Source: Promethearchaeota archaeon
GTDB taxonomy: Archaea; Asgardarchaeota; Lokiarchaeia; Sigyniarchaeales; SOKP01
Direction: 5' to 3'
DNA length: 64,000 bases
Assembly: GCA_019058365.1 (NCBI GenBank)
Contig: JAHPZE010000003.1
Location: forward strand, 32,001-96,000
Of this stretch, positions 48,811 to 64,000 are shown one piece after another. Position 1 is the stretch's first letter, and each line of letters starts with the position of its first letter. The notes below the pieces were generated by a model. The model was not told the origin of the DNA, searched no databases, and saw only the letters and a program-made list of their open reading frames with translations. The position numbers and the translations under genes were made by a program.

Positions 48811-49290
48811 TATTTTATTCCTCCTACTTCTATTTACTTTATTTATTAGATTAGATCTAAATTTGTTATCTCAAGATTTTTTTCCATTGCTTAATTATGT
48901 CTTTTCCCTATTTAAGCTTTCTTTTAAATTTTCTAAAATACCCAGATTACATTATAAACGATCCCAATATCCTAAAGCTTTAAAATTATTTGAAGACGCA
49001 ATTCAGATTTTAGATAACCTTAAAATGAGCGTTGAGCCTATAACTGAAACTCTTAAAGAAAATATTGAATTTATCAAAAATGAGATGGAAAAAAAGCCAA
49101 TTAATTAATCAAAAATATCGAAGCTTGTGAATATACTCTTTTTTATTATATCTCTTTTTAGATCACTGCAGAAATGTAAAAATAATCTTAAATATTACCA
49201 AATCATACTAAATTCTTACTATTTTGACTAAGATATTTACCTAAAAACTTTCTGTAATAATTTTAAAATTTTAAAAAAGGGTAAAATTTT

Positions 49291-49308
49291 CCTTTAGAAC
49301 ATACTCCA
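49291..49308 (-). repeat. R9: core motif of the 23S-trailer repeat just 3' of tRNA-Pro
   Basis: + strand TAGAACATACTCC next to an A-tract, same orientation as the other copies. Confidence 0.6.
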
Positions 49309-49311
49309 CTA

Positions 49312-49385
49312 TGGGGTAGGAGGGACTTGAACCCTCGACCTCCTGATCCCGAACCAGGAATCCTACCAAGCTGGACTACCACCCC
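49312..49385 (-). tRNA. tRNA-Pro(CGG), intronless
   Basis: GGGGTGG/CTACCCC, CCTGG-TTCGGGA-TCAGG and GAGGG-TTCAAGT-CCCTC. Confidence 0.95.
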
Positions 49386-49466
49386 ATTTCGAACATTTCT
49401 CGTAATCCTTATACCTTAAACCCATTCCTTTTTCCCAAACTAAAAAAAATAAAAAATTTAAAAACC

Positions 49467-49525
49467 TCTATTATGAACGGACTCTTTCTCATCCCACCTC
49501 AATCCATACAAACCTTACCTTACCG
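49467..49525 (-). repeat. R8: highly degenerate 23S-trailer copy
   Basis: A-tract, then TGAACGGACTC...CTCAATCCATACAAACCTTACC, aligning with 61931-61983. Confidence 0.5.
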
Positions 49526-49568
49526 TTTCAAATAAAATATATATCCTAGGGTTCTTAAATTCTTACTT

Positions 49569-50048
49569 TTACTTTTCATTTATTTGTTTGCCAAATTTAA
49601 TGGCATTTTTTGTTCCGATCCACAATATTTTTCTAAATTTTCTCTGGTTGATTACTTCGGCTCCTGCTTCTTCTACTTTTATTTTCATATATTCTAATGC
49701 TTTTCCACCAGTAAAACGAGCAGTGTTAAATACAATCGCTTTTTTTCCACTAAGATTTCCCATTCTTGCTAAGATTTCATCAAAAGCTTTTGGTGGAAAA
49801 TTTCCATATGTGGGCATACCGAAAATAATTAAATCATAACTTGCAGCATCAAGAATATTCAATTCCGTTTCTATTGCTGAAAAATCTTTATTTTCGAACT
49901 TGTCTAACAATTTTATCTTTTCAATAAATTTCCCGGTTATTTCGACTGGAAAGTAACTCACTTCATGAGTAGCCAGAGCACTCGCAATAGCTTCTGCTGT
50001 TTTTTTCGTTCTTCCTCCCATTGTAAAATATGCAATTAGAATTTTCAT
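49569..50048 (-). CDS. Flavodoxin family protein
   Basis: YFTMGGRTKKTAEAIA and GMPTYG. Confidence 0.85.
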   Translation of the reverse strand: MKILIAYFTMGGRTKKTAEAIASALATHEVSYFPVEITGKFIEKIKLLDKFENKDFSAIETELNILDAASYDLIIFGMPTYGNFPPKAFDEILARMGNLSGKKAIVFNTARFTGGKALEYMKIKVEEAGAEVINQRKFRKILWIGTKNAIKFGKQINEK

Positions 50049-50119
50049 AATAAACAGTAATTTTTGAATAAACTAATTCTTTTGGATTGGTTATAATAAA
50101 AAGAGAAAAATTGTAATAT

Positions 50120-50758
50120 TTAGAATTTCCTTGACTTTCCTTGCAAATCAAAATTTGCTATCATCCCACTTCTATTCTTAAACTCCCAATTTTTTCCAAA
50201 ATCATTATATTTCCAAAAGTGAGTGTTACAAATTTTGAAATCTGAGAGGAACATACCAAAAAGAGAATTTTGAAGTCTTTGAGGATTTTTCCCATCGAGT
50301 CCCGGAGCATAGGATAATTTCATTTCTCCATTAGGCATAGTAATGTGGTAAGTATTTCCTTCTTGATTTAGATTAATATCGACATATTTTATTCCTAAAA
50401 TCTTTTTTAAAAGTATCGCACCAGGTATATTGTTAATAAAAAGAGGTTCTAAATACCTCCTTTGTTCTTCAGTAGTTTTATTACTAATATATAGCCCTCC
50501 TTCTCCACCTTTTGGCAGAACATCAGCAGCTTTATTAGAATATAAATCAATTACATTAATAGCCAATACTCCACTAATATCTACATCTCCAATTTTTCCC
50601 TCATTATATTGGAACAATTGAAATGATTTGCATGGAGTTTCTCTGTCTCTCCCAAAATAATATGAACAGAGCCCCTCTGATGCGCATGCCTCATACCACA
50701 CACCTTTCATACTCCAACTAATTCTCTCACTAATTTCTTTAGCCATTATTTCACCCAT
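50120..50758 (-). CDS. DUF1326-like protein
   Basis: W...G.WYEAC...C..C and G..GDVDISG pattern. Confidence 0.65.
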   Translation of the reverse strand: MGEIMAKEISERISWSMKGVWYEACASEGLCSYYFGRDRETPCKSFQLFQYNEGKIGDVDISGVLAINVIDLYSNKAADVLPKGGEGGLYISNKTTEEQRRYLEPLFINNIPGAILLKKILGIKYVDINLNQEGNTYHITMPNGEMKLSYAPGLDGKNPQRLQNSLFGMFLSDFKICNTHFWKYNDFGKNWEFKNRSGMIANFDLQGKSRKF

Positions 50759-50867
50759 TTAGTTTAATTTTAATTGAATTTTAAATTTTATGGCCTAGCA
50801 TTTATAATTAAGAAGAAACATTTATTAAATCATTCTATAAAACAAAATTAGTTAAAAATAAAAGCTT

Positions 50868-50915
50868 CTACTCAAGAACATACTCCGTCCTTTCTTATCT
50901 CACTATTAAATCCTG
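50868..50915 (-). repeat. R7: 23S-trailer copy
   Basis: A-tract, then CTCAAGAACATACTCCGTCCTTTCTTATCTCA. Confidence 0.8.
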
Positions 50916-51000
50916 CTTTTTCCGCATCTGCAAAATAATTTATTTGTTATCGAAATCAAATTTAAATTTTTTTATTTCTTAAGTATAATTTATAATTACT

Positions 51001-51603
51001 TTGGAGATTATAATGGTAAAAAATAAAATTAGACCTAATCCATATATTTACCCAATGCCTCTAGTTCTAATTGGTGCAAATGTTAATGGTAAAGCAAATT
51101 TCATGCCGCTTGCTTGGATTAGTATGGCAGAACATGAACCTCCTATGATTTCAATATCCTCATCTAAATCTCATTATACAAATAAAGGAATAGTAGAAAA
51201 TCAAACGTTTAGTGTCAATACACCCTCAGAAGATATGATTAAATCCGCAGATTATTGTGGCTTAAAATCTGGCAAAGATATTGATAAATCAAAGATATTT
51301 GAAATTTTTTATGGAGAATTAGGAACAGCACCAATGTTAATAGAGACACCCTTAAACCTTGAATGTAGAGTAGTGAAAATAGTAGACACTAAAGATTTTA
51401 TCGCCCCTGATAAAAGAGGACATTATATTTTTATTGGCGAAATTGTTCAAGCATATTCAGGTGAGGAATATCTTACAAATGGAATCCCTGATATAAAAAA
51501 AATAAATCCATATACACTTACCCAAATCGATGCGAGTTATTGGAAAATTGGTGAAAAAATCGGTAAAGCTTGGAGTATTGGAAAAGATTATTCTACTAAT
51601 TAA
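51001..51603 (+). CDS. Flavin reductase-like family protein
   Basis: YPMP, NFMPLAW, FSVN, LECRV and HYIFIGEI. Confidence 0.88.
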   Translation: MEIIMVKNKIRPNPYIYPMPLVLIGANVNGKANFMPLAWISMAEHEPPMISISSSKSHYTNKGIVENQTFSVNTPSEDMIKSADYCGLKSGKDIDKSKIFEIFYGELGTAPMLIETPLNLECRVVKIVDTKDFIAPDKRGHYIFIGEIVQAYSGEEYLTNGIPDIKKINPYTLTQIDASYWKIGEKIGKAWSIGKDYSTN

Positions 51604-51874
51604 TCTTATATTTTTTTTAATGAATATTAATCCATGTATTTAACTCTCAATTTATAATAAGGATTTAATAGTATCTGAATTATTCATAGTAAGATATACC
51701 AAATTATTAACAAAAAGATCTTTATCTTTTGAATTTTATTTTTCATTTTAATCATCATCTCAAATTCATTAACATTCTTATTTTTATAATCACTGAATTT
51801 TGCTAAAAATACTGAACCAAATTAATCATCCGAAAGATTCTTTATTATTATAGAGAGAATTATCCAATAAAAAT

Positions 51875-52408
51875 TTAATCAGTTCTATGAATTGGTTGAT
51901 CTATTGCCTTTAAATAGTAAATCCTAAAATTTATTCCTTTTAATTTAACCACAACATTAATAAAAATGCCCGGACCCCATTTTGGACCTTCTCGAAATAT
52001 CATCTCATATGTACTCCCATATAGCTTATATTCGTTTGTAGGTAAAGCTGAAATTATTTCTGTACCATATATTAACCATAAACGCTCAAGGCTTATTGTT
52101 GAGGGGAATTCCAAAACACCACTTGCGTGAATTTTAATAACTACTATTAAAGGTTTTCCATCTGGTGGTGAAATTGGCATAAAATCACGCCACATATAGG
52201 TCTCTAAAGAATATGTAATATTCCCTTCATGAATCTCCTCCTGTGCTGTATATATACCAGGTTCAATATAATAATCCCATTTAGGATTTGAATTAGTTCC
52301 GTTAAGATTCACTAAAACACTTATTATACTGAAAGGAATTACAATAATACCTATAATAATTATGATTAATATAATAAAGCTTGAATTCCTCTTCAAGAGT
52401 ATAAACAA
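51875..52408 (-). CDS. Hypothetical protein with an N-terminal membrane anchor
   Basis: Hydrophobic N-terminus followed by a beta-rich domain. Confidence 0.65.
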   Translation of the reverse strand: MFILLKRNSSFIILIIIIIGIIVIPFSIISVLVNLNGTNSNPKWDYYIEPGIYTAQEEIHEGNITYSLETYMWRDFMPISPPDGKPLIVVIKIHASGVLEFPSTISLERLWLIYGTEIISALPTNEYKLYGSTYEMIFREGPKWGPGIFINVVVKLKGINFRIYYLKAIDQPIHRTD

Positions 52409-52507
52409 TCCGTTTCTTAATTTTTATTTACTAAATAGGATTTTTATGTTTTTAAACTTATTTGTCTAAGATTTAAACAATTCAAAAATTAAAAAAAATA
52501 AAATCCT

Positions 52508-52606
52508 TGCTCGTGAACATACTCCTTCCAGCTCTTCTCGTCTCAAACCAAGTATTTCTTCTCATCCATTTCTAAGCTACAAATCCTCATACCCTAAGCT
52601 TGAACT
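52508..52606 (-). repeat. R6: 23S-trailer copy
   Basis: A-tract, then TGCTCGTGAACATACTCC...TCTCAAACCA...CTAAGCTTGAAC. Confidence 0.85.
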
Positions 52607-52709
52607 GTAAATTGTCAGTTTATTCAAAATTTAATGAATTTAAAATCCAAATAATTATATGTACAACTGTAAAAATTATTCATAGAGAATCGAAAATCTA
52701 TTTAGAAAA

Positions 52710-53987
52710 TTGAAAAAAAAAACCTATATTCTATTAGGATTAGTAATTGGTTTGCTTTTTAGCTCTTTACCTCAATTTAAATTATCCAGGTTTGATCACC
52801 AGAATAATAAAAACAATAATTTAAAGATTAAAACTAATGAATTAGACGAATCATGGGAAAATGCTTTTGAATTTTTTGGATTAGATATGGTTATTGATTT
52901 AAATGATTGTATTTATGTTATGGCAGCTGAAAATTACTATTCAGGTTTGGGTTATTGGTATTATGGTGATCTAATATTATCAAAGTACAACAGCACTGGA
53001 GATCAATTATGGAGTTTTAATTTAGAGGGATTAAGATTAGATTATTCTGTGATTGCTATCGATTCAAAATCTAACCTATATTTAGCAAGCATGTTTGATA
53101 ATTATTCAATAACGCCCAACATGATATTGTTTAAATTCAATTCTTCTGGGGATTTAATATGGCAAAAAACATGGGATGGAGGAGGTAATGGAGATATTGT
53201 CGATATTGGTGTTGATTCAAAAGATGATATTTATATTTATGGGACTGCGGATTTAACTGAAGAATTCAAATCAAGTTTATTTATAGTAAAATATAATAGT
53301 TCTGGTGATCAACAATGGGTGTATCTTTATGGAGAATTAGAGGGATTTTATGAAGGAGAGGATATGGAAATTGATTCAAATGGTAATTTAATAGTATCAG
53401 GTTTTTACTATATCCAAGGGGATTCTTCTAATTGGATAAGATGCTATAATCAGTCTGGAATTTTGAAGTGGGAAATGATTAGTGAACAGGGGGGTTATTA
53501 TAATCTAGCAATAGATTCTTCGGATAATATAATTGTTGGAGGAAGATCATATATAGTGAAATATAATGATTTAGGTGATTTAATATGGGCATGGCAACAT
53601 CATTTTGAATTTTATTGGTCAATTGATATAACATTTGATTCTTTTGATAATATATATGCAGGTACGATTATAAGCATCCCAGAAGACCACCATAATTATG
53701 ATCTATATGTTGTTAAAATTAATAGTTCTGGAAATTTTGATTGGTATTTAACATGGGGTGGTGCAGGTGATGAAGATTTAATCGCAATTGATATTGACTC
53801 AAGTGACAATATCTATATATTATCTGATCATTTTCTACTAAAGAATCCAGAAAGTAATGGGAAATCACTCACTAATGAGAAATTATGGTCATTTTATCTG
53901 ATTATGTTTGGTATCTGCTTCTCTATTTCTGCGATCTCGTTGGTTCTTATTGTAAAGCGACGAGGTCGTAAAATGGAAATAAATTAA
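52710..53987 (+). CDS. Surface beta-propeller (SBBP-like repeat) protein
   Basis: Signal-like N-terminus, repeated IAIDS..NIY/KYNSSG..W units and a C-terminal TM helix. Confidence 0.82.
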   Translation: MKKKTYILLGLVIGLLFSSLPQFKLSRFDHQNNKNNNLKIKTNELDESWENAFEFFGLDMVIDLNDCIYVMAAENYYSGLGYWYYGDLILSKYNSTGDQLWSFNLEGLRLDYSVIAIDSKSNLYLASMFDNYSITPNMILFKFNSSGDLIWQKTWDGGGNGDIVDIGVDSKDDIYIYGTADLTEEFKSSLFIVKYNSSGDQQWVYLYGELEGFYEGEDMEIDSNGNLIVSGFYYIQGDSSNWIRCYNQSGILKWEMISEQGGYYNLAIDSSDNIIVGGRSYIVKYNDLGDLIWAWQHHFEFYWSIDITFDSFDNIYAGTIISIPEDHHNYDLYVVKINSSGNFDWYLTWGGAGDEDLIAIDIDSSDNIYILSDHFLLKNPESNGKSLTNEKLWSFYLIMFGICFSISAISLVLIVKRRGRKMEIN

Positions 53988-54091
53988 ATCTAAAAGCAAA
54001 AATCTTAAGATTTAATTTAGCTAAAAGATAATGCAGACTTCTAATTTAATACTGTTCATGAAAGAAATAAATGATATTAATAATGTAAGCA

Positions 54092-54634
54092 TTAAAAGTA
54101 TCTCGCACCAAAAAAGAAGTAAGCATTCATCAGATAAGCATCAATTATACCAATTACTAAAAATGATAAAGTATTGATGATTGCTGATATTGAAAATACT
54201 GTTTTAGATGATAAGATTATCCTTGATCGATCTTCTGTCAAAAGCTTTTGAAATTCTGATTGATATAAAATCCATTCAATAATGATTACAATAATTTCAA
54301 TCACAAGCCAAATATAGAGTATAAAAATTATATTAAACGCTAATGAAAAATAAAATGCTAAGTGGGTAGCTGGAAATGTGATAAGGTTGACTAGTATTAC
54401 AGATAGTAATAATTCTCGTTTACCCACTTCATGTGACCTCGAAATATCATAAAGAACACCATATTCAATAAATGTATTAAGAAAGAAAGTCCCAACCAAA
54501 GCTATTATTATGAAAACGGGATACTCCCAAAAAGCAATCGGTACGATACCTGCTGGGATATATAAAATTGTACTAGATATAAACGCGATGAATACCACAA
54601 ATCCAATAACTCCAATATAATTTCGAAGCCTCAT
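54092..54634 (-). CDS. Hypothetical membrane protein
   Basis: Five hydrophobic helices. Confidence 0.65.
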   Translation of the reverse strand: MRLRNYIGVIGFVVFIAFISSTILYIPAGIVPIAFWEYPVFIIIALVGTFFLNTFIEYGVLYDISRSHEVGKRELLLSVILVNLITFPATHLAFYFSLAFNIIFILYIWLVIEIIVIIIEWILYQSEFQKLLTEDRSRIILSSKTVFSISAIINTLSFLVIGIIDAYLMNAYFFFGARYF

Positions 54635-54713
54635 AATGAAATTGTAGATAATGTACTTTTTAAGCTTTTGTGCTCATAAATTTAGTTTTCTATAAATATG
54701 AAATTACCGAAAT

Positions 54714-54870
54714 TGCTCAAGAGCATACTCCTTCCCGTCTTATCTCAAAAAAGCATTTAACAAAACTTACCATCTCCATCCACACCACAATCCCCTACAC
54801 GTTAAGCTTGAACCTTGTGATTCCTCTTTCAACACTATACACCAGTGCTATTGAGAGCAGCGTGTTAAGA
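54714..54870 (-). repeat. R5: full 23S trailer plus last ~30 nt of 23S
   Basis: Colinear with about 61930-62080, including TCCCCTACACGTTAAGCTTGAACCTTGTG and GTGCTATTGAGAG. Confidence 0.92.
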
Positions 54871-54873
54871 ATC

Positions 54874-55365
54874 TTAAGAATATAACTTCCTTAAATATGA
54901 TTTTAATGTGTCAATATTTTTAAAGTAAAATAAGCTTTCCTCTTCCTTAAAAAAAGGTTTTAATAAACCTCCTCTTTTAAGGACTTCTGTAATTTCCGCA
55001 TCTCTTAATACGAATACTTTTGTCTTTTTAGAAAGTTCTCTAAAGGAGAGGATGATTCCCATTTCGATCATATGACCTCCTTTATCGTGTTCTATAATCA
55101 TGATGATTTCATTCGAAAATTTAGCAATAAGATCAAATTTAAAAATTAAATTCTCAAGATGGGTACGTCTAAATTCTTTTTCAAAAAATCCTAGGTTATT
55201 CTTAACAGAATTTACAATCTTTTGTACTTCTTGAAGAGTAGTGAAAGCTTCTTCATTGTACGAACCACAAATAAAGATCTTGTTTTTCTTCAAATCGTAA
55301 ACTGAAAAAATATTAGTAAATTCATCTAAAAAATCATCCCATGCATTATCGTGTGAAAACTGCAT
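54874..55365 (-). CDS. Hypothetical protein, possible nucleoside 2-deoxyribosyltransferase-like fold
   Basis: IFICGS and SNEIIMII...GGHMIEMG pattern. Confidence 0.55.
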   Translation of the reverse strand: MQFSHDNAWDDFLDEFTNIFSVYDLKKNKIFICGSYNEEAFTTLQEVQKIVNSVKNNLGFFEKEFRRTHLENLIFKFDLIAKFSNEIIMIIEHDKGGHMIEMGIILSFRELSKKTKVFVLRDAEITEVLKRGGLLKPFFKEEESLFYFKNIDTLKSYLRKLYS

Positions 55366-55538
55366 TCTCTACTCCCAATAAATATAAAATAAATTAGAAA
55401 TTCATTTATGGTATAATTTATTATATACCAATAATAATTGACTCAATTAATTTTGAGTTAAATTTAAATAATTGATTATGCATATTTAATTTGAAATTAG
55501 ATGAAATATAGAATATAAATAATGAGAGTGAAAAAGTT

Positions 55539-55880
55539 TTGGATACTCCCAAAAACCTTGAAAATATAAGGAAAGAATTGGAAATCATATCAGAAAAGAC
55601 ACGATATAAGATACTGCTAACTTTATTAGCTAGTGAAAAATCTCTCTCATTCAGTCGATTTAGGGAACTTTTACCTTCTATTCCAGAGAATACTCTGAAT
55701 TATCATCTTAAAATCCTTAAAGAACAAAATTTTATTAAAAATGAAAAAAGAATGGGATACAAACGTTCTGAACCTCGCTCTTTTTATTCTCTTAGGAAAA
55801 AATCCATTGATCTGCTTGGAAATTTAGGTTTAAATGATGTGAAAGAAGAATTTCAAGCGTTATTTAAACAAATGACATAA
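55539..55880 (+). CDS. ArsR-like winged-helix regulator
   Basis: TRYKILLTL, LSFS and NTLNYHLKIL. Confidence 0.85.
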   Translation: MDTPKNLENIRKELEIISEKTRYKILLTLLASEKSLSFSRFRELLPSIPENTLNYHLKILKEQNFIKNEKRMGYKRSEPRSFYSLRKKSIDLLGNLGLNDVKEEFQALFKQMT

Positions 55881-55901
55881 TTTATTTTTTAAAAAAAAAA
55901 A

Positions 55902-55970
55902 CGCTGCTCAAGAACATACTCCCCCTCGTCTTGTCCGTTCCATCTCGTTTTTATTCTTATCACCACCCCC
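55902..55970 (-). repeat. R4: 23S-trailer copy
   Basis: A11 tract, then CGCTGCTCAAGAACATACTCC and a pyrimidine-rich tail. Confidence 0.8.
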
Positions 55971-56173
55971 AAACACAAACAAAAAAAAATAAAAAACCAT
56001 AGCTAATATAACAGAAATTTTATAATCTTAAAAAACTCCTTTATTTAATATAACTAGACAAATTTATCAAAATATTGGACTCATAATTGTTATGACCATA
56101 TATCCTGAAATTGTATAATCTTATAGTTGTATTATTCTTTATATTTAAATATAACATTAAGTTGAAATAAGTT

Positions 56174-56839
56174 ATGAAATATACTTCTATCTTTGATGTA
56201 ATTGGCCATATAATGGTTGGACCAAGTTCAAGCCATACTGCAGGAGCGTGTCAAATTGCGTATGTTGCACGGTTATTATTTGGAAAAAAGCCTAAAACTG
56301 TAAAAATAGGACTTCATGGTTCATTTGCAGAGACATATAAAGGTCATGGTACGGATATCGCAATTTTAGCTGGACTACTTGGATTTACACCTGAAGATGA
56401 TATGATCAAAAACGCATTTGAAATTGCTGAAAAAGAGGGGCTTGATTATTCATTTGAACTTGTGGATTTAGGGGTGGATTACCATCCAAATTCAGTTAGT
56501 ATAGAGATGTTTGATGGATCAGAAAAAATGAATGTAATAGGTTCTTCAATTGGAGGAGGTAACATAATAATCAAAGAAGTTAATAGCTTAGAAGCAGGAT
56601 TTGGGGGAGAACCAAATACGCTCGTAATATTAAATCATGACAAGATTGGGGCACTTGTAAATATAGCAAATACACTTCAAAAATTTAAATTAAATATAGG
56701 ATCGATGAAAATCTCCAGAAATTTGAAAAAAAAGATATCTTTAACATGGCTTGAAGCAGATACCGCGATACCAGAAGATCTAATTGATGCATTAAAAAAA
56801 TATCCAGAAATAATTTGGGTGAGGGTAATCAATGTTTGA
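56174..56839 (+). CDS. sdaAB: Fe-S L-serine dehydratase beta subunit
   Basis: MVGPSSSHTAGA, GHGTD, HPN, SIGGG and an ACT domain. Confidence 0.95.
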   Translation: MKYTSIFDVIGHIMVGPSSSHTAGACQIAYVARLLFGKKPKTVKIGLHGSFAETYKGHGTDIAILAGLLGFTPEDDMIKNAFEIAEKEGLDYSFELVDLGVDYHPNSVSIEMFDGSEKMNVIGSSIGGGNIIIKEVNSLEAGFGGEPNTLVILNHDKIGALVNIANTLQKFKLNIGSMKISRNLKKKISLTWLEADTAIPEDLIDALKKYPEIIWVRVINV

Positions 56840-57698
56840 ATCTATTTCTAATCTGCTCAATGAATCTCAAACAAAAGGGATTCCATTACATGAATTAATA
56901 ATAAACGATGAAATGGAATTTCAAAATATTCCTAAGCGGATTATAATTGAAAAGCTTAATAAATCTTTAATTATAATGAAACAGTCTCTTGAAAAAGCAC
57001 TTGTAAGTGATATTGAATTGCCGATCAAAGAAGCAAGCCATCAGGCAAAAAGAATGCTTTCACCAGGAATTTTCTGTGGAACTAATTTAAAAGAAGCCGT
57101 GGGCTGGGCAATGGCTATCGGTGAATATAATAGTGGTATGGGATTAATTGTTGCTTGTCCTACAGCAGGTTCTTCTGGAACCCTACCTGCTGTTCTTTTT
57201 AAAGCTAAAGAAATTCTAAATAAATCGGATGATGATGTATTAAACGCTTTAATCGTTGCGGCAGCAATAGGGGCAATTATTGGTAATAACGCAATGCTTT
57301 CGGGAAGTGAAGGAGGTTGTCAAGCTGAAATTGGAGTTGCATCTGCAATGGCGTCGGCTGCTATAACTTATATGGCTGGAGGAACCCATCTTCAGATAGA
57401 CAATGCGATTGCATTAACATTAAAAAATCTATTAGGACTTGTTTGTGATCCTGTTGCCGGATTAGTAATTTCACCATGCATTAAAAGGAATGCTATAGGT
57501 GTGGTTAACGCATTTTTAGCTGCTGAAATGGCAATATCAGGAGTTGTATCTATTATCCCAGCAGATGAAGTTGTGGATGCTATGATGAAAGTTGGTCGTA
57601 AATTACCATATGAATTAAAAGAGACAGGAAAGGGTGGAATAGCAGCAACTAAAACGGGGAAAAGAATAAGAAAGAGCCTTTTTTCTGATATGTTATAA
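56832..57698 (+). CDS. sdaAA: Fe-S L-serine dehydratase alpha subunit
   Basis: ACPTAGS, GGCQAEIG, GLVCDPVAG, PCIKRN and ETGKGG. Confidence 0.95.
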   Translation: MFESISNLLNESQTKGIPLHELIINDEMEFQNIPKRIIIEKLNKSLIIMKQSLEKALVSDIELPIKEASHQAKRMLSPGIFCGTNLKEAVGWAMAIGEYNSGMGLIVACPTAGSSGTLPAVLFKAKEILNKSDDDVLNALIVAAAIGAIIGNNAMLSGSEGGCQAEIGVASAMASAAITYMAGGTHLQIDNAIALTLKNLLGLVCDPVAGLVISPCIKRNAIGVVNAFLAAEMAISGVVSIIPADEVVDAMMKVGRKLPYELKETGKGGIAATKTGKRIRKSLFSDML

Positions 57699-58012
57699 CA
57701 TTTATAAATCCAATAGAAAAAAAAGGATGAGTGAGAAATTAAAAATTGAATAATTAGGTCTTTATATTTTTTTTTATTCTCCCTATTTTTATGATTGGAA
57801 TTGTTCACTAAATTTTCATTGAAATCAGGCAGAAATAAATATATCCATTAATATATGTTCTTGAAAAATTAATCATCTCGAATTTTAATAATATACGTTC
57901 TAAAAATATAATTTCTTGCATTTGTTCATCTAATTGTTCAAGATTTAGTTCGAAATAAAAACAAAAATTATAAATATTATTGTTCTATTATATAATATAA
58001 TGGTGTTCAATT

Positions 58013-58687
58013 ATGAAAATGATGATTGAAAAAGATAGAAAAGAGATAATTTCAGAAGTGCAAAAATATGGTGGTATAGGTCTGCGACACCAATCTTTAA
58101 GAGTACACAAGAATGGGGCAAAATTTCCAATAAGTAAGAACTATATTGATGATGAACTTTTGGATCCCGAAATAGTATATACTCTTATTTTAATACCGGA
58201 AATTAAAATTGCTACTAAAACTAGTGTAGCATTAAGTTATTTTGCTCGAAAAAAAGGTCCTCTCGTATTTTATACATATCCCGAGAGCATTCTTGAAGAA
58301 GGTTTTTCCGTTCAAATTGCAAATATAATGGTTCAAGTATCTAAAGAGGGTTTCTTTGCCAACCAGTCAAGCACTGTACCATCAACCTTGAATTATTATT
58401 TTGAAATTCCTTCAGAATGGGCTCGTGGAAATAAAGAAATGCTCATGATCAGCGTGTTTTTAGATAAACCTATAAATAAGCTACTAGAAAAAAGGATTCA
58501 GGAAATATGTACTGATTTTGCTTTGCAATTAAAAAATGCAGAAGGACTTTTTAAAGCGCTATATATGGAAACAATTGATAAAATTCCGGAAAAGGATCGT
58601 TCAGACATTAAAAAATTTAATGAAAATTTAAAAACTAAAATAAAAACTTTATATGAGGAAATAGAAATATCGAGTAAGGAAAAATGA
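58013..58687 (+). CDS. Hypothetical protein, possible longin/uDENN-like domain
   Basis: LSYF...GPLVFYTYP and SEWARG..MLMIS pattern. Confidence 0.55.
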   Translation: MKMMIEKDRKEIISEVQKYGGIGLRHQSLRVHKNGAKFPISKNYIDDELLDPEIVYTLILIPEIKIATKTSVALSYFARKKGPLVFYTYPESILEEGFSVQIANIMVQVSKEGFFANQSSTVPSTLNYYFEIPSEWARGNKEMLMISVFLDKPINKLLEKRIQEICTDFALQLKNAEGLFKALYMETIDKIPEKDRSDIKKFNENLKTKIKTLYEEIEISSKEK

Positions 58688-58691
58688 AGAT

Positions 58692-58804
58692 GGTCGCCCG
58701 AAAGCTCCCTACGTACACCCACACCTCACTAACCCCGTCTTTTACGGGTGTACTTGTCTCGCATACTCAGTTCGCACCACCGCGCTCTGATCTCGTTACT
58801 CAGC
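58692..58804 (-). repeat. R3: 113-nt copy of mature 23S sequence (62083-62195)
   Basis: 7 mismatches and no gaps against 62083-62195. Confidence 0.96.
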
Positions 58805-60625
58805 TTAGGGAACAAAATAATGGGTATTTTGTTGGTGATCCTGTGAATGTATTTTCCCAGTCGATCTAAGTTTATTCAATGTTTCTTTTAGATTTTCTTT
58901 TCCGAATTCTAACATTTTAGGATCTTTAAGAAAATTTTCTAACCTTTTTTCTAAAGCTTCTAATGTAAAAGCAGAACCTTGATTATCTTTCAAATAATTG
59001 TAAATTTTTTCTTTAAAATCTTCTTCAATTGAATATTCCTTCTTAATTGTTGTTGTTTTTTTAAATGCCAGTTTCTCAATAATTTCCATATTCCTTTTTG
59101 TTAAAGCAAAGTCACTTTTAATTTCAAGTGCTTTTTGGTAGCATTTATATGCTACCTCGTATTGCATGAGCATTTGTTGGGCAACACCATTAGCTGTCCA
59201 TGATTTTTCATCAGGGAAGAATCCATGATGCTTAGCTTCTACAGATTTCAGATGTGTTTTTGAAAGATCAGGACGCTTGAATTTAGAAATGTTATTCTTA
59301 GCCATTAGACCATACATCATAATTTGTATTGGATTAAATCCTAATTGCTGACTTTTTGCAAAACACATAAGGGCATTTTTAAACTCTCCCAAGGCGCAGT
59401 GCGCTTTCCCACGATAAAACCATGCTGGTCCTGATGTGGGCTCACGTTCATTGATTCTAATTAATGTAGTAAGAGCACTTTCAAAATTACCAGTTGCTTC
59501 TTCTTCAACGACCATTTGCAATAATTCTTCTATATTCTCTTTATGCATGGGAGTCCTGCAATACGGGCATATACCACTGTTGGTATAATTTTTCTTTCCA
59601 CAGCGGGGACAATAATCACGTCCATCAACAACTGAATGAATTGTACCTTCTACTCCCATCGTACTGAAATGCTTCAATGCATCGATTTGTTCTTTAGCAT
59701 TTTCATGATTAGGTTTTAACTCCAATGTTTTTTTATAATCAGCCAAGGCTCTCTCAAATTGATTAGTTTTTTTGAAACTTGTTGCTCGGTTATAGTATGC
59801 CCCCTCAAAATCTGGATTAATTTCGATAGATTTAGAATAACTTAATATTGCTTCATCATATCTCTCCAGTGAATCTAATGCAAGCCCTTTATTATTATAT
59901 GAAGCAGAATAATTGGGATTTAACTCTATAGCTCTATCATAACATTCAATAGCTTTTTCAAATAAATTTTGGCTATCATAAACCCACCCTTTATGAACCC
60001 ACGCTAAAAATAATGTTGGTTCATATTTTAATGCTTTTTCGAAATAAACAAGTGCATTTTTTTGATTCTGAGACATTTGGTTAATGATACCTAAGTAAAG
60101 ATAAGCCTCAGCAAATTCTGGGAATATTTTAATCGCAGAATTAATCGCATTAAGAGCTTCAGACATTTTATTTCGATGGGTAAGTTTAATACCCTGTTTA
60201 AATAAGTCTAAAGCTTTTTTTGGAATGTTTTTGCCTTCAACTTTTAATGATCCAAAAAACTCCTTCTGTCGCTTTGCTTGCATTAGTAGAGGGAGAGCTT
60301 GTCGAAAATTAGGATTATGCTTCAAAATTTTCTCAATTGTCTCTATTGATTCATCATATTTTCCCTCCATTAAGAGCATTAATGCAAGATTGAGAAGTGT
60401 AAAGGGATTGTAAGGATCATAAGAAAGTGCACGATTAAGACATTCTTTTGCTTTCTCAAACTCCTCAAGGTGGAGATAAACACTTCCCATATTGCAAAAT
60501 AACTCTGGATCGTCATCTACTAGTTTATAAGCCTTTTTAAAAAAATTTAAAGCTTCTTGTGGTTTACGATTATTCAATGCTATTGTGCCTTGGTTGTATA
60601 AATCTTCGTATTCTTTACTATACAA
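58805..60625 (-). CDS. TPR-repeat protein with an internal zinc ribbon
   Basis: Many TPR units (A...Y..A.EL.P) and CPRC...CPYC. Confidence 0.92.
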   Translation of the reverse strand: MYSKEYEDLYNQGTIALNNRKPQEALNFFKKAYKLVDDDPELFCNMGSVYLHLEEFEKAKECLNRALSYDPYNPFTLLNLALMLLMEGKYDESIETIEKILKHNPNFRQALPLLMQAKRQKEFFGSLKVEGKNIPKKALDLFKQGIKLTHRNKMSEALNAINSAIKIFPEFAEAYLYLGIINQMSQNQKNALVYFEKALKYEPTLFLAWVHKGWVYDSQNLFEKAIECYDRAIELNPNYSASYNNKGLALDSLERYDEAILSYSKSIEINPDFEGAYYNRATSFKKTNQFERALADYKKTLELKPNHENAKEQIDALKHFSTMGVEGTIHSVVDGRDYCPRCGKKNYTNSGICPYCRTPMHKENIEELLQMVVEEEATGNFESALTTLIRINEREPTSGPAWFYRGKAHCALGEFKNALMCFAKSQQLGFNPIQIMMYGLMAKNNISKFKRPDLSKTHLKSVEAKHHGFFPDEKSWTANGVAQQMLMQYEVAYKCYQKALEIKSDFALTKRNMEIIEKLAFKKTTTIKKEYSIEEDFKEKIYNYLKDNQGSAFTLEALEKRLENFLKDPKMLEFGKENLKETLNKLRSTGKIHSQDHQQNTHYFVP

Positions 60626-60759
60626 TAAAAATCACATTTTTGTCTTTGTAATAAAATATTTGTTTAATTAATTTATAAATATTTTTAAGATTGAGATATG
60701 AACATTGAATACCCAAATTTGGATACCTTCTTAATTAAAAATAAGAAAAAATAAAACCG

Positions 60760-60874
60760 TGCTCTAAAACATACTCCAGTCCTTCTCGTCTCAAACCATT
60801 CAATCCTTACCTTATTGCTCCGTCCACGCGACAATCCCCTACACGCTAAGCCTGAACCTTATGATTCCCCTTTC
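60760..60874 (-). repeat. R2: 23S-trailer copy
   Basis: Colinear with 61930-62041, roughly 80% identical by eye; exact TCCCCTACACGCTAAGCCTGAACCTT. Confidence 0.93.
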
Positions 60875-60875
60875 T

Positions 60876-61253
60876 TTAATAACTCCATGCCTTCATTTCT
60901 AATTCTTTTATTTTTCTCTCTTAATTTCTGTATTTCATAGAGATTTTTCCTAACTAAATGTTCTATATATTCTCCTAGTTTTCTTTTTTCCATTAATAAT
61001 ATATTCTTATCTCTCAGATTGTCTATTTCAATTTGATTCCCTAAATATTCAATTGGCCTCTTAATATTCTTATCTCAACTCCAGTTCTTTTTTTTGCTTG
61101 AATTAAACTCTCTTTATATTTCCCTTCAGATGTAATCGGAAGCAATTGATTAATTGTAAACAATTTGTCTTCTAAGTCTACTAAATAATGATTAAAAAGC
61201 TCTTTTCTCTTTCCTAAATCCTTAATATCTATTGCTATTTTTTCGCAATCCAT
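60876..61253 (-). pseudogene. Probable frameshifted coiled-coil gene
   Basis: The 70-aa ORF 61041-61253 continues after a one-base shift as GNQIEIDNLRDKNILLMEKRK...AWSY, with its stop at 60876. Confidence 0.5.
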
Positions 61254-61311
61254 TTTAAGAATTAAAGTTGAAAACGTTACTACTAAATAAGTAAAAGAAA
61301 TATAAAAATAA

Positions 61312-61356
61312 TGCTCATGAACATACTCCTTCTAAACCCTTCTCATCTCAAACCAT
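61312..61356 (-). repeat. R1: short 23S-trailer copy
   Basis: TGCTCATGAACATACTCCTTC...CCTTCTCATCTCAAACCA after an A-tract. Confidence 0.88.
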
Positions 61357-61870
61357 GATAATTGTATAAGAAACTACCAATTCGCTCAAAAACCTCTTCA
61401 CATCCCAACCCAGTCCCCGCTGAAATCTCCATATATCCCATCAAATTATTATCACTTGCAAAATTCCTAATATCTTCTCCAGAAACCTTGCGAACCCCTA
61501 CTAAATCGAGTTTATTTCCAATTAAGTAAATTGGAATATCTCCTGCATATTCCTTAATCATTCTAGGAAATTCAGATAAATAGGTAAAGGAATTTAAATT
61601 TGTCAGATCATAAAAAAGAATGACAACATCTGACCCTGATATAAATATTCTTAAATCACGTCTAAAACTTTCTTTATTCGAAACATTCCAAATCATAAAA
61701 TTAATTACACACTCTCCAACAAACAATTCCTTTTTATAAGCCTCTACTCCTATGGTCTCTAAATGATCTTCAACGAAAAAATGATCATCGATAGACTTCC
61801 TAAGAAAAGTACGCCTTCCAACCTCTCTATCACCGATTATGACAAGTCTGAATATATAATTAGGCTTCAC
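61343..61870 (-). CDS. Degenerate Rab-like small GTPase
   Basis: GDREVGRR (G1), TIGVE, WNVS (G3), NKLD and EISA. Confidence 0.85.
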   Translation of the reverse strand: MKPNYIFRLVIIGDREVGRRTFLRKSIDDHFFVEDHLETIGVEAYKKELFVGECVINFMIWNVSNKESFRRDLRIFISGSDVVILFYDLTNLNSFTYLSEFPRMIKEYAGDIPIYLIGNKLDLVGVRKVSGEDIRNFASDNNLMGYMEISAGTGLGCEEVFERIGSFLYNYHGLR

Positions 61871-61910
61871 AATACTTCTATATCAATTTTTCCTAAATAA
61901 ATCATATGAT

Positions 61911-61925
61911 AAAAAAAAAATAAAA
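61911..61925 (-). terminator. Oligo-T terminator of the 23S transcript
   Basis: TTTTATTTTTTTTTT on the minus strand right after the G-rich trailer. Confidence 0.7.
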
Positions 61926-61927
61926 TC

Positions 61928-62050
61928 GCTGCTCTAGAGCACACTCCATCCCTTCTCTTATCTCAAATCATTCATTCCTTACCATCCCCTCCACGCTACA
62001 TTCCCCTACACGCTAAGCCTGAACCTTGTGGTTCCTTTTTCAACACCACA
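61928..62050 (-). other. 23S pre-rRNA 3' trailer (R0, reference repeat copy)
   Basis: G-rich 120-nt stretch between the 23S end and the T-tract; hairpin TGTGG..CCACA and terminal palindrome TGCTCTAGAGCA. Confidence 0.7.
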
Positions 62051-62147
62051 CACTCGTGCTATTGAGAGTGGCGGGCTGAACAGGTCGCCCGAAAGCTCCC
62101 TGCGTACACCCCCACCTCACTAACCCCGTCTTTTACGGGTGCACTCG

Positions 62148-62391
62148 TCTCGCATACTCAGTTCGCGTCACCGCGCCCTGATCTCGTTACTCAGCATCCC
62201 ATACATTCAAATTATAATGCTTCTCGCTTCATGCTCATGCATATGTCTACCCTCATGCTTCCGCTTCCACAATCAAGCACACACTTACACTCGCACTTAC
62301 ACTCCGATTGGCTTCCGGTTTTCACAGGAGAACCTTACCAATCACACTAACTTAAATACACAACATACCTCGCAACACTCTTTACACGAGA
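62148..62391 (-). other. ES39 (helix 98) expansion segment, about 244 nt
   Basis: Non-conserved insert closed by TCTCG/CGAGA at the H98 position. Confidence 0.82.
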
Positions 62392-62580
62392 TTGGCTGAC
62401 TATTTTCGGGTTTGGCTTCGTGCTTAGATGCTTTCAGCACTTATCCATTGGCGCGTGGCTGCCCGGCCTTACCTTGTCAGATAACCGGTACACTAGAGGC
62501 GCCGGCAAAATGTTCCTCTCGTACTGATTTTCCCTTGCCCTCAGTCAACCCACAAACCCAGTAGATAGAATCCGACCTGT

Positions 62581-63391
<811 letters not shown>

Positions 63392-64000
63392 TTAATGGGC
63401 GTACAGCCCCACCCTTGGAGGTTCTGCGCTGTGCTCCACTACGGAAACACATATGTGCGCCTCCAGGATAGGAAGAGCCGACATCGAGGAAGCAAGCCAC
63501 GAGGTCGATAGGGACTCTTACTCGTGACAACTCTGTTACCCCCGGGGTAATTTTTCTATCACCTCAACCATCCACACGAGAAATGTTGAGGATCGCTAGA
63601 CCAGGCGTTAGCCTCAGGATTCCTTGGTGATCAGAATCCAGTCAGACCAGCTTATGCTCTTAAACTCTTCAGCGGATTCCTGACCCGCTTGAGCTGATCA
63701 TAGGTTACTCTAGATATTGTTTCTAGAGTGAGCCGCCCCAGCCAAACTGCCCACCTGCGGGTGTCCGACGCGGTATAGGCGCCGTTAGCGATTTCAAAGG
63801 GGAAAGCCGGTGTTCCAATTGTGCTCCGCCGCTACCGAGATAGCGACATCGACGCTCCCGACTACACTCTGTATCCAATTCAAAACCGCAGCAACAAGCT
63901 GCAGTAAAACTCCACGGGGTCTTCTCGTCCCACTGGGTTTCTCCGGACCGTTCGCCGGAGTGCAAGTTCAATCGTCAGGAGGCTGGGACAAGAGGGAGAA

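What the first reader, a model, noticed from the sequence alone, without database searches (positions are those of the whole stretch)
49291..62050. Gene-cassette-like array built from decayed copies of the 23S rRNA 3' end (candidate rRNA-anchored gene-capture locus)
Seen: downstream of the 23S gene, same-orientation partial copies of its 3' trailer/end occur at about 61312, 60760, 58692, 55902, 54714, 52508, 50868, 49467 and 49291. Apart from the 58692 copy they begin at the terminator end (A-rich run + GCTCwwGArCAyACTCC on +) and extend roughly 18-157 nt toward the rRNA. Each interval holds 1-3 unrelated genes: GTPase, coiled-coil relic, TPR protein, sdaAB/AA plus a longin-like gene, wHTH plus NDT-like, beta-propeller, flavin reductase, flavodoxin plus DUF1326, and finally tRNA-Pro. 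No integrase or transposase is in the window. Inference: repeated homology-facilitated illegitimate recombination. Incoming DNA from a relative pairs in the conserved 23S, brings its own trailer and downstream genes, and joins by microhomology inside the resident trailer, pushing the old trailer stub and cargo outward. That would make the rRNA a landing pad for an integron-like, chronologically ordered array. An unlinked site-specific recombinase or an RNA-templated route are alternatives. I am not aware of a description of this in Asgard archaea but cannot search.
Basis: partly seen in the sequence, partly recalled or inferred. Interest (0 to 1): 0.92.

Follow-up and report, generated by a model that had tools for sequence, protein, structure and literature searches.

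The report
Gene cassettes stacked behind 23S rRNA
Behind the single 23S ribosomal RNA gene of this Asgard (Loki-type) archaeon, small gene packets are separated by leftover copies of the rRNA gene's tail; related species swap and reorder the same packets without a linked integrase, so the rRNA tail acts as a reusable landing site for new genes.

Summary
Real. All nine copies are where stated, on one strand, and confined to this locus in the 4.7-Mb genome. They are pieces of the pre-23S 3' trailer, which pairs with the 23S leader through a conserved bulge-helix-bulge stem; only two contain mature rRNA. Many species of the genus (Promethearchaeia) have the same array at the same place with other cargo; some distant Asgard families have it with unrelated trailer sequences. 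A stub's start is inherited with the cassette before it, while the next cassette changes. An sdaAB cassette is 92-97% identical between species whose core is 73-82% identical. Order is shuffled, not chronological (tRNA-Pro is itself a cassette). No integrase or reverse transcriptase lies in the arrays. Best reading: homology-driven insertion-duplication, then exchange at the short shared trailer motif. The genome shows the same footprint at about 55 other loci, so 23S is a hotspot of a general process. Also found: a second ~50-bp att-like repeat, linked elsewhere to a 302-aa tyrosine recombinase, follows 24 of 151 trailer ends. The scan noted such arrays before in other Asgard genomes; I found no paper. 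No read-level check was possible.

The parts
62040..64000 (-). 3' part of the single 23S rRNA gene (gene continues to about C35:98216), with hypervariable ES39-type expansion at about 62200-62390
   Evidence: Rfam RF02540; BLAST gaps against relatives; ES39/H98 in PMC7594248; mature end inferred
62584..63356 (-). Intron in 23S with LAGLIDADG homing endonuclease ORF 62651-63286; absent at this site in most relatives
61903..62040 (-). Functional pre-23S trailer: 3' strand of processing stem (BHB near 62012-62022, terminal 17-nt motif near 61929-61947), then T-run
   Evidence: cofold with leader; BHB in 11 of 12 genomes with compensatory changes
61343..61870 (-). Cassette 1: Ras-family small GTPase; homologous cassette with similar junction in G048, G065, G042
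61289..61356 (-). Stub (trailer, model 255-320)
   Evidence: 21 bits
61041..61253 (-). Cassette 2: 70-aa ORF, no family
60738..60874 (-). Stub (whole trailer, model 184-319), closer to G046's intact trailer than to this genome's
58805..60625 (-). Cassette 3: TPR protein, not found in 53 congeners at DNA level
58691..58806 (-). Stub of mature 23S (model 28-143, 94% identical), 3' part lost by later deletion (inferred)
58013..58687 (+). 224-aa gene (longin-like only as a weak lead); flanked by two B repeats in G001:C78
57799..57828 (-). Half copy of second repeat 'B' (att-like, about 50 bp)
   Evidence: B HMM 21.5 bits, E=0.0009; full B at the same spot in G005 and G024
56174..57698 (+). sdaAB serine dehydratase genes; cassette 92-97% identical in distant congeners
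55891..55990 (-). Stub carried with sdaAB (HMM core 55891-55935; longer by alignment to relatives)
54874..55880 (.). Cassette: wHTH gene (55539-55880 +) and 163-aa gene (54874-55365 -); same junctions in G005, G046, G008
54695..54868 (-). Stub (last ~37 nt of 23S plus trailer, model 146-316)
   Evidence: 92 bits
52710..54634 (.). Cassette: 180-aa membrane-type ORF (54092-54634 -) and 425-aa repeat/propeller-like ORF (52710-53987 +)
52491..52608 (-). Stub (model 198-314)
   Evidence: 43 bits
51001..52408 (.). Cassette: 177-aa ORF (51875-52408 -; directly behind the intact trailer in G052) and flavin reductase (51001-51603 +)
50850..50902 (-). Stub (model 261-316)
   Evidence: 18 bits
49569..50758 (-). 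Cassette: DUF1326 and flavodoxin; each has a conserved non-array locus in other congeners
49451..49528 (-). Decayed stub (model 234-314)
49311..49386 (-). tRNA-Pro(CGG), itself a cassette found at different ranks in five genomes
49273..49309 (-). Terminal-motif-only stub directly behind tRNA-Pro
   Evidence: (8 bits)
49122..49140 (-).
   Evidence: aligns with G005 and G066 stubs

Best explanation
An additive gene-cassette island that grows and reshuffles by homology at the end of the 23S transcription unit, without a dedicated integrase. SHOWN: each unit is [T-run | cargo | joint | copy of 23S end/trailer]; the joint position is arbitrary but travels with the cargo; neighbours change; units move between species. 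INFERRED step 1 (birth): DNA from a relative that carries 23S end + trailer + genes recombines in the conserved 23S end, and its far end is joined illegitimately inside the resident 23S end/trailer (or the fragment circularises first and pops in), so the resident tail is duplicated instead of deleted. Selection keeps an intact trailer next to 23S because it must pair with the leader. INFERRED step 2 (spread): once a cassette has a stub behind it, it can be inserted, excised or replaced by host recombination at any trailer or stub, often at the last ~20 shared bases; this scrambles order. INFERRED step 3 (supply): in about one sixth of junctions a separate att-like repeat (B) sits right behind the terminator, so tyrosine-recombinase modules can deliver new genes there. 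The 23S end is a hotspot because it is the best-conserved sequence among donor species; the same process marks other gene ends in this genome.
For: 181 of 182 HMM hits in 61 loci co-oriented, none in decoys. 129 of 154 stubs end at the terminator while starts spread over model positions 9-280; longest about 500 nt. Homologous upstream cargo gives the same joint within 5 nt in 17 of 28 pairs (about 8 cassette families, pairs not independent; median offset 12.5 vs 71 random), and only 2 of 28 share the downstream cargo. sdaAB plus its distinctive stub in G000, G005, G024, G044, G006, G009 is followed by four different neighbours, switching at the terminal motif; identity 92-97% against 73-82% for the core flank in G024, G044, G006, G009. 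Cargo has no close copy elsewhere in G000. Genes complete, in either orientation (84 vs 63), upstream regions kept, which fits DNA capture. No PF00589 or RVT_1 match in arrays. Stub conservation tracks that of intact trailers in every region, no extra constraint on the motif (0.90 vs 0.93). A distant family (G227) has the same layout with an unrelated trailer. G000 has 116 direct vs 9 inverted relic repeat pairs, 56 vs 9 loci. B follows 24 of 151 trailer ends, 0.9 expected, and borders elements with a 302-aa tyrosine recombinase in G042 and G058.
Against: No birth event or circle was observed. Microhomology seen clearly once (5 nt, G011) and 0-4 nt elsewhere. Described HFIR gives insertion-deletions, not duplications (PMC2884548; reference titles). 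Exchange at about 20 shared bases is short for RadA-type recombination (my knowledge) and is what a site-specific enzyme would also give. The 16S gene, equally conserved, has no stubs in this genome, nor has the 23S 5' side. Several congeners have an intact trailer with no detectable stub. No outgroup genome for the direct-repeat count.
Confidence: 0.6

Rival explanations
1. An unlinked site-specific recombinase (XerA, the B-associated 302-aa enzyme or an unknown one) recognises the terminal trailer motif and moves cassettes as circles, integron-fashion.
For: sdaAB stub switches neighbours at the motif; T-run similarity follows the downstream cargo, stub body the upstream cargo (confounded by kinship); a XerA-like gene is in nearly all congeners; motif is weakly palindromic.
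Against: Motif conservation is explained by leader pairing and is no higher in stubs; motif differs completely in another family with the same layout; 25 stubs lack it; the 302-aa enzyme is absent from G000 and found in only 5 of 40 congeners; it does not explain variable starts.
Confidence: 0.15
2. Break-induced templated insertion: forks stall or break at the end of the heavily transcribed rRNA unit, the nascent strand switches to other DNA, copies 0.3-4 kb and returns upstream, duplicating the tail (MMBIR-like; analogous to the eukaryotic rDNA fork barrier). May account for cassette birth together with the best explanation.
For: Fixed 3' end and variable 5' start; one-sided (downstream only); cargo genes have unrelated native loci, so both joints must be made de novo at some time.
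Against: No near-identical template in the same genome; similar relics at ordinary gene ends; stubs often resemble other species' trailers more than the host's.
Confidence: 0.13
3. Remnants of integrase-encoding islands whose attP carried the 23S tail (as at tRNA or ssrA ends), later stripped of their integrases.
For: Same geometry as ssrA tandem islands (PMC3146451); one orphan stub lies 1.5 kb from a tyrosine integrase in G024:C28.
Against: No integrase in any array examined; continuous spread of starts would need dozens of specificities; median cassette 1.1 kb.
Confidence: 0.06
4. RNA-templated or homing-driven copies: reverse transcription of pre-rRNA from its 3' end, or co-conversion during homing of the 23S LAGLIDADG intron.
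For: Fixed 3' end with 5' truncation resembles retrocopies; an intron endonuclease sits 500 nt upstream.
Against: No RVT_1 in five array genomes; copies are local and co-oriented, not dispersed; starts do not cluster at the BHB; cargo keeps either orientation and upstream regions; the intron is missing in most array-bearing relatives.
Confidence: 0.04
5. Assembly chimera of several strains joined at rRNA repeats.
Against: Copies are at most 174 nt and 94% identical; independent assemblies share the same joints and neighbours; the contig is 323 kb and syntenic with relatives on the distal side.
Confidence: 0.02

Closest known systems
Tandem ssrA-specific genomic islands of Dehalococcoides (PMC3146451) and tRNA-end island stacks
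   Same: Tandem accessory modules behind a single-copy stable-RNA gene, each bounded by a direct repeat of its 3' end; strain-specific content; no duplicates within a strain.
   Different: There a 20-bp repeat with a fixed insertion point and a serine-integrase module on 16 of 31 islands; here an rRNA processing trailer, repeat length 17-500 nt with arbitrary start, about 1-kb units, no integrase.
Additive flexible genomic islands (Alteromonas, PMC5217437)
   Same: Same chromosomal position across strains; cassettes added or removed; near-identical cassettes across species.
   Different: Ascribed largely to site-directed recombination, with plasmids and ICEs as vectors; not anchored on rRNA.
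rRNA-associated hypervariable region HVR2 of SAR11 (10.64898/2026.04.03.716430)
   Same: Variable accessory island beside the 23S gene.
   Different: Bounded by tRNAs, rRNAs are landmarks; no internal rRNA-tail repeats described in the passages read.
Integrons and CALINs, including Asgard ones (10.1101/2022.02.06.479319)
   Same: Array of small, shuffled, repeat-delimited gene units, enriched in Asgard archaea.
   Different: No IntI, no attC; delimiters are rRNA tail; genes in both orientations with own upstream regions; order not an age series; that paper does not mention rRNA.
Homology-facilitated illegitimate recombination and Campbell-type insertion-duplication (described in PMC2884548; PMC3784515 reference list)
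   Same: One homologous anchor plus one illegitimate joint; host recombination only.
   Different: Known from single laboratory events in competent bacteria, usually with deletion of recipient DNA; here repeated, duplicative and building a heritable array.

Membership tests
Integron / CALIN | Integron integrase gene (IntI) linked or in genome | tested here: not met
   No PF00589 in arrays; G000 has only XerA-like and a 437-aa integrase on other contigs; B-associated enzyme scores 54 bits on TIGR02249, cut-off 265
Integron / CALIN | attC-type delimiters | tested here: not met
   Delimiters are pre-23S trailer copies; no attC-type Rfam hit at gathering score; no dedicated attC model was run
Integron / CALIN | Co-oriented promoterless cassettes, newest at the insertion site | tested here: not met
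   84 vs 63 orientations, median 131 nt upstream kept; no age gradient, order inversions
Integrase-driven tandem islands at tRNA/ssrA ends | Direct repeats of the host RNA gene's 3' region bound each island | tested here: met
Integrase-driven tandem islands at tRNA/ssrA ends | Integrase module in at least some islands | tested here: not met
   none in arrays; serine recombinases were not searched
Integrase-driven tandem islands at tRNA/ssrA ends | Fixed crossover position | tested here: not met
   starts at model 9-280
Additive flexible genomic island | Conserved position, cassette-wise gain and loss, lateral movement | tested here: met
Additive flexible genomic island | Site-directed recombination by element enzymes | tested here: inconclusive
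   none for the stubs; plausible for the B repeat
HFIR | Homologous anchor on one side | tested here: met
   23S end conserved at about 94% among intact copies; geometry only, event not observed
HFIR | Short microhomology at the illegitimate joint | tested here: inconclusive
   one 5-nt case, others 0-4 nt, donors only 85-93% identical
HFIR | Deletion of recipient DNA next to the anchor | tested here: not met
   resident tail is duplicated
HFIR | RecA/RadA dependence, DNA uptake | not testable with these tools
   needs a culture
MITE / dispersed repeat | Genome-wide dispersal, either orientation | tested here: not met
   all G000 hits at this locus, one strand
Archaeal pre-rRNA processing stem | Leader-trailer duplex with 3-4-3 bulge-helix-bulge | tested here: met
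   G000 and 10 more genomes, compensatory changes

The most novel reading that the evidence does not exclude
Asgard archaea have an undescribed two-tier gene-exchange system: a duplicative, integrase-free capture route active at many gene ends and most prolific at the rRNA processing trailer, which serves as a cross-species recombination handle, fed in Lokiarchaeia by tyrosine-recombinase modules docking at an att site behind the rRNA terminator. It would be a main route by which these relatives of eukaryotes gain and shuffle accessory genes, including small GTPases and TPR proteins.
Probability: 0.35. Interest if true: 0.88.

Novelty: new variant of a known kind. Interest (0 to 1): 0.7.

Why it matters
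How Asgard archaea take up and rearrange genes is largely open, and it bears on how the eukaryote-like gene set was assembled. This locus shows dated-by-sequence lateral moves of whole cassettes (sdaAB, tRNA-Pro, wHTH pair) between species at a defined, PCR-accessible site, with no known mobile-element signature, so island and integron finders miss it. It also predicts a general duplicative integration mode in these genomes, and a natural landing site for genetic tools in cultured Asgard strains. Stub copies can also mislead rRNA-based binning and assembly.

Tried and rejected
Run search: no RNA holder listed; small-share runs not used. Age gradient: not significant except relative rank vs bits per column (rho -0.32, p=0.01), which is confounded by which part of the trailer a stub covers. 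16S flanks and 23S 5' side: no stubs (first attempt timed out). 5S not found. Other tRNAs lack the motif, so it is no generic terminator. Promoter/terminator scan at chance level. Motif as att core: no extra conservation. Homing intron as driver: absent in most relatives. RT: none. Intragenomic copying: none. Orphan stubs in single-record MAGs G006 and G023 not used as evidence of dispersal, since those records look like joined contigs (sdaB match stops abruptly). Atlas look-ups of two cargo proteins gave leads only. Nine literature searches found no description of rRNA-tail-delimited arrays; the library lacks most subscription papers.
Full report
OBSERVATION. The window is C35:32001-96000 of a 4.74-Mb MAG; relatives are labelled Promethearchaeota/Promethearchaeia. 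The 23S gene lies on the minus strand and is split by an intron with a LAGLIDADG ORF. Nine partial copies of its 3' end/trailer lie downstream at the stated places. An HMM from ten intact trailers finds them all and nothing else in the genome. 16S is unlinked and has no such copies; neither has the 5' side of 23S. One further relic lies near 49130.

WHAT THE REPEAT IS. The BHB holds in 11 of 12 genomes with compensatory changes. The motif is therefore conserved because the functional trailer needs it. In stubs every region is 2-7 points less conserved than in intact trailers, the motif included, so there is no sign of separate selection on it as an att site. Seven of the nine copies are trailer only.

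RELATIVES. 39 of 53 congeners match the tail, many several times. In 61 fetched loci, 181 of 182 hits are co-oriented and decoys give none. Arrays sit before the same conserved flank, with mostly unique cargo, median 1.1 kb. 129 of 154 stubs end at the T-run; starts spread over 270 positions, almost all downstream of the hypervariable ES39-type insert. Some congeners have no visible stub. A self-comparison finds at least one copy in 7 of 19 genomes of other genera, in two genomes of other families of the order, and in 5 of 19 across the phylum, one with eight copies of an unrelated trailer in 17 kb. These are samples; kin are not independent.

CASSETTE BEHAVIOUR. Where two genomes share the cargo before a stub, the joint is the same within 5 nt in 17 of 28 pairs (about 8 cassette families), but only 2 pairs share the next cargo. 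The wHTH pair keeps both joints in G000, G005, G046 and G008 with different neighbours. sdaAB with its distinctive stub occurs in six genomes before four different neighbours, switching at the terminal motif; it is 92-97% identical in species whose core flank is 73-82% identical, i.e. lateral transfer. Modules directly behind the intact trailer in G052, G019 and G056 sit behind stubs elsewhere, as expected if new units push old ones outward. But order is not an age series: tRNA-Pro(CGG) is a cassette that is last in G000 and earlier in G005, G046, G066; the 177-aa gene precedes sdaAB in G024 and follows it in G000 and G044; rank does not predict identity. Cargo has no close copy elsewhere in G000; flavodoxin and DUF1326 have conserved non-array loci in other species. 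Genes are whole, in both orientations, with upstream regions.

ENZYMES. No tyrosine recombinase or reverse transcriptase lies in an array; serine recombinases were not searched. One orphan stub is 1.5 kb from an integrase. While aligning joints I found a second, fixed-length repeat (B, about 50 bp). It forms co-oriented clusters in two genera, borders elements carrying a 302-aa tyrosine recombinase (not IntI by cut-off) and a 172-182-aa partner in G042 and G058, and follows 24 of 151 trailer ends against 0.9 expected. G000 lacks that enzyme but keeps about ten B copies, one half copy at 57799-57828. The 224-aa gene next to it is B-flanked in G001, which explains the odd 58692 copy as a later B-site insertion followed by deletion of the stub's end (inference).

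GENOME CONTEXT. Earlier notes on this genome pointed to gene-end duplications around cassettes. My scan finds 116 direct against 9 inverted relic repeat pairs 0.25-15 kb apart, in 56 against 9 loci. Direct repeats are favoured in any genome and I had no outgroup, but this suggests the 23S array is the most prolific case of a general duplicative integration.

MECHANISM. Shown: geometry, inheritance of joints, reshuffling, lateral transfer, absence of a linked integrase. Inferred: birth by one homologous and one illegitimate joint (linear, or through a circle) that duplicates the resident tail; spread by host recombination between trailer copies, often at about 20 shared bases; supply partly through B sites. 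Microhomology evidence is thin: one 5-nt case, others 0-4 nt. Described HFIR replaces recipient DNA. Confidence 0.6; rivals are a motif-specific recombinase (0.15), break-induced templated insertion (0.13), stripped integrase islands (0.06), RNA or homing routes (0.04), artefact (0.02).

COMPARISON. It works like tandem islands at ssrA/tRNA ends (PMC3146451) and additive flexible islands (PMC5217437), but fails their integrase and fixed-site features. It fails integron membership (for the Asgard integron survey). SAR11 HVR2 lies by rRNA but is tRNA-bounded. I found no paper on rRNA-tail-delimited arrays; this scan noted them in several other Asgard genomes, which I treated as leads.

VERDICT. 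Real, lineage-wide, apparently undescribed variant of additive islands with an unproven, probably host-recombination mechanism. Interest 0.70. Limits: no reads, no culture, MAG fragments, non-independent pairs.

Noticed in passing
window 57799-57828; L054, L045, L055, L193, L196, L197, L208-L212: Second ~50-bp repeat (B) in co-oriented clusters in two genera, bordering elements with a 302-aa tyrosine recombinase plus a 172-182-aa partner; likely att site of integrase-less module stacks.
   Followed up: partly
window 62584-63356: LAGLIDADG-encoding intron in 23S, present here but absent at this site in most congeners; G041 has only a short insert.
   Followed up: partly
window 62200-62390: About 190-nt hypervariable ES39-type expansion; all but a few stubs start downstream of it.
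   Followed up: partly
G000 genome-wide (e.g. C49:54761-59771, C43:40241-41778, C39:244983-245810, C46:182012-183455): About 55 other loci with direct-repeat-flanked segments where one copy is a non-coding relic of a gene end or intergenic region.
   Followed up: partly
L050:3977-6917 (G024:C28): 270-nt decayed 23S-tail stub 1.5 kb from a 391-aa tyrosine integrase, far from the 23S gene: a mobile element may have carried a cassette away.
   Followed up: no
L087 (G064:C84:6697-7066): About 500-nt stub that includes the donor's expansion segment, the longest seen.
   Followed up: partly
L084 (G069:C1) and L104 (G017:C39): 'Empty' units: trailer, B repeat, then the next stub with no gene between.
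   Followed up: no
G000 C35:148078-148181 and C35:231183-231285: A tRNA gene follows 16S and has a 76% identical paralogue 83 kb away; 16S and 23S are unlinked and no 5S was found by Rfam.
   Followed up: no
G000 C24:47906-57199 and C11:6727-11287: Clusters of non-coding direct repeats of 100-500 nt not related to the 23S tail.
   Followed up: no
L070 (G032): A 16S gene start follows the 23S trailer directly; no stubs there.
   Followed up: no
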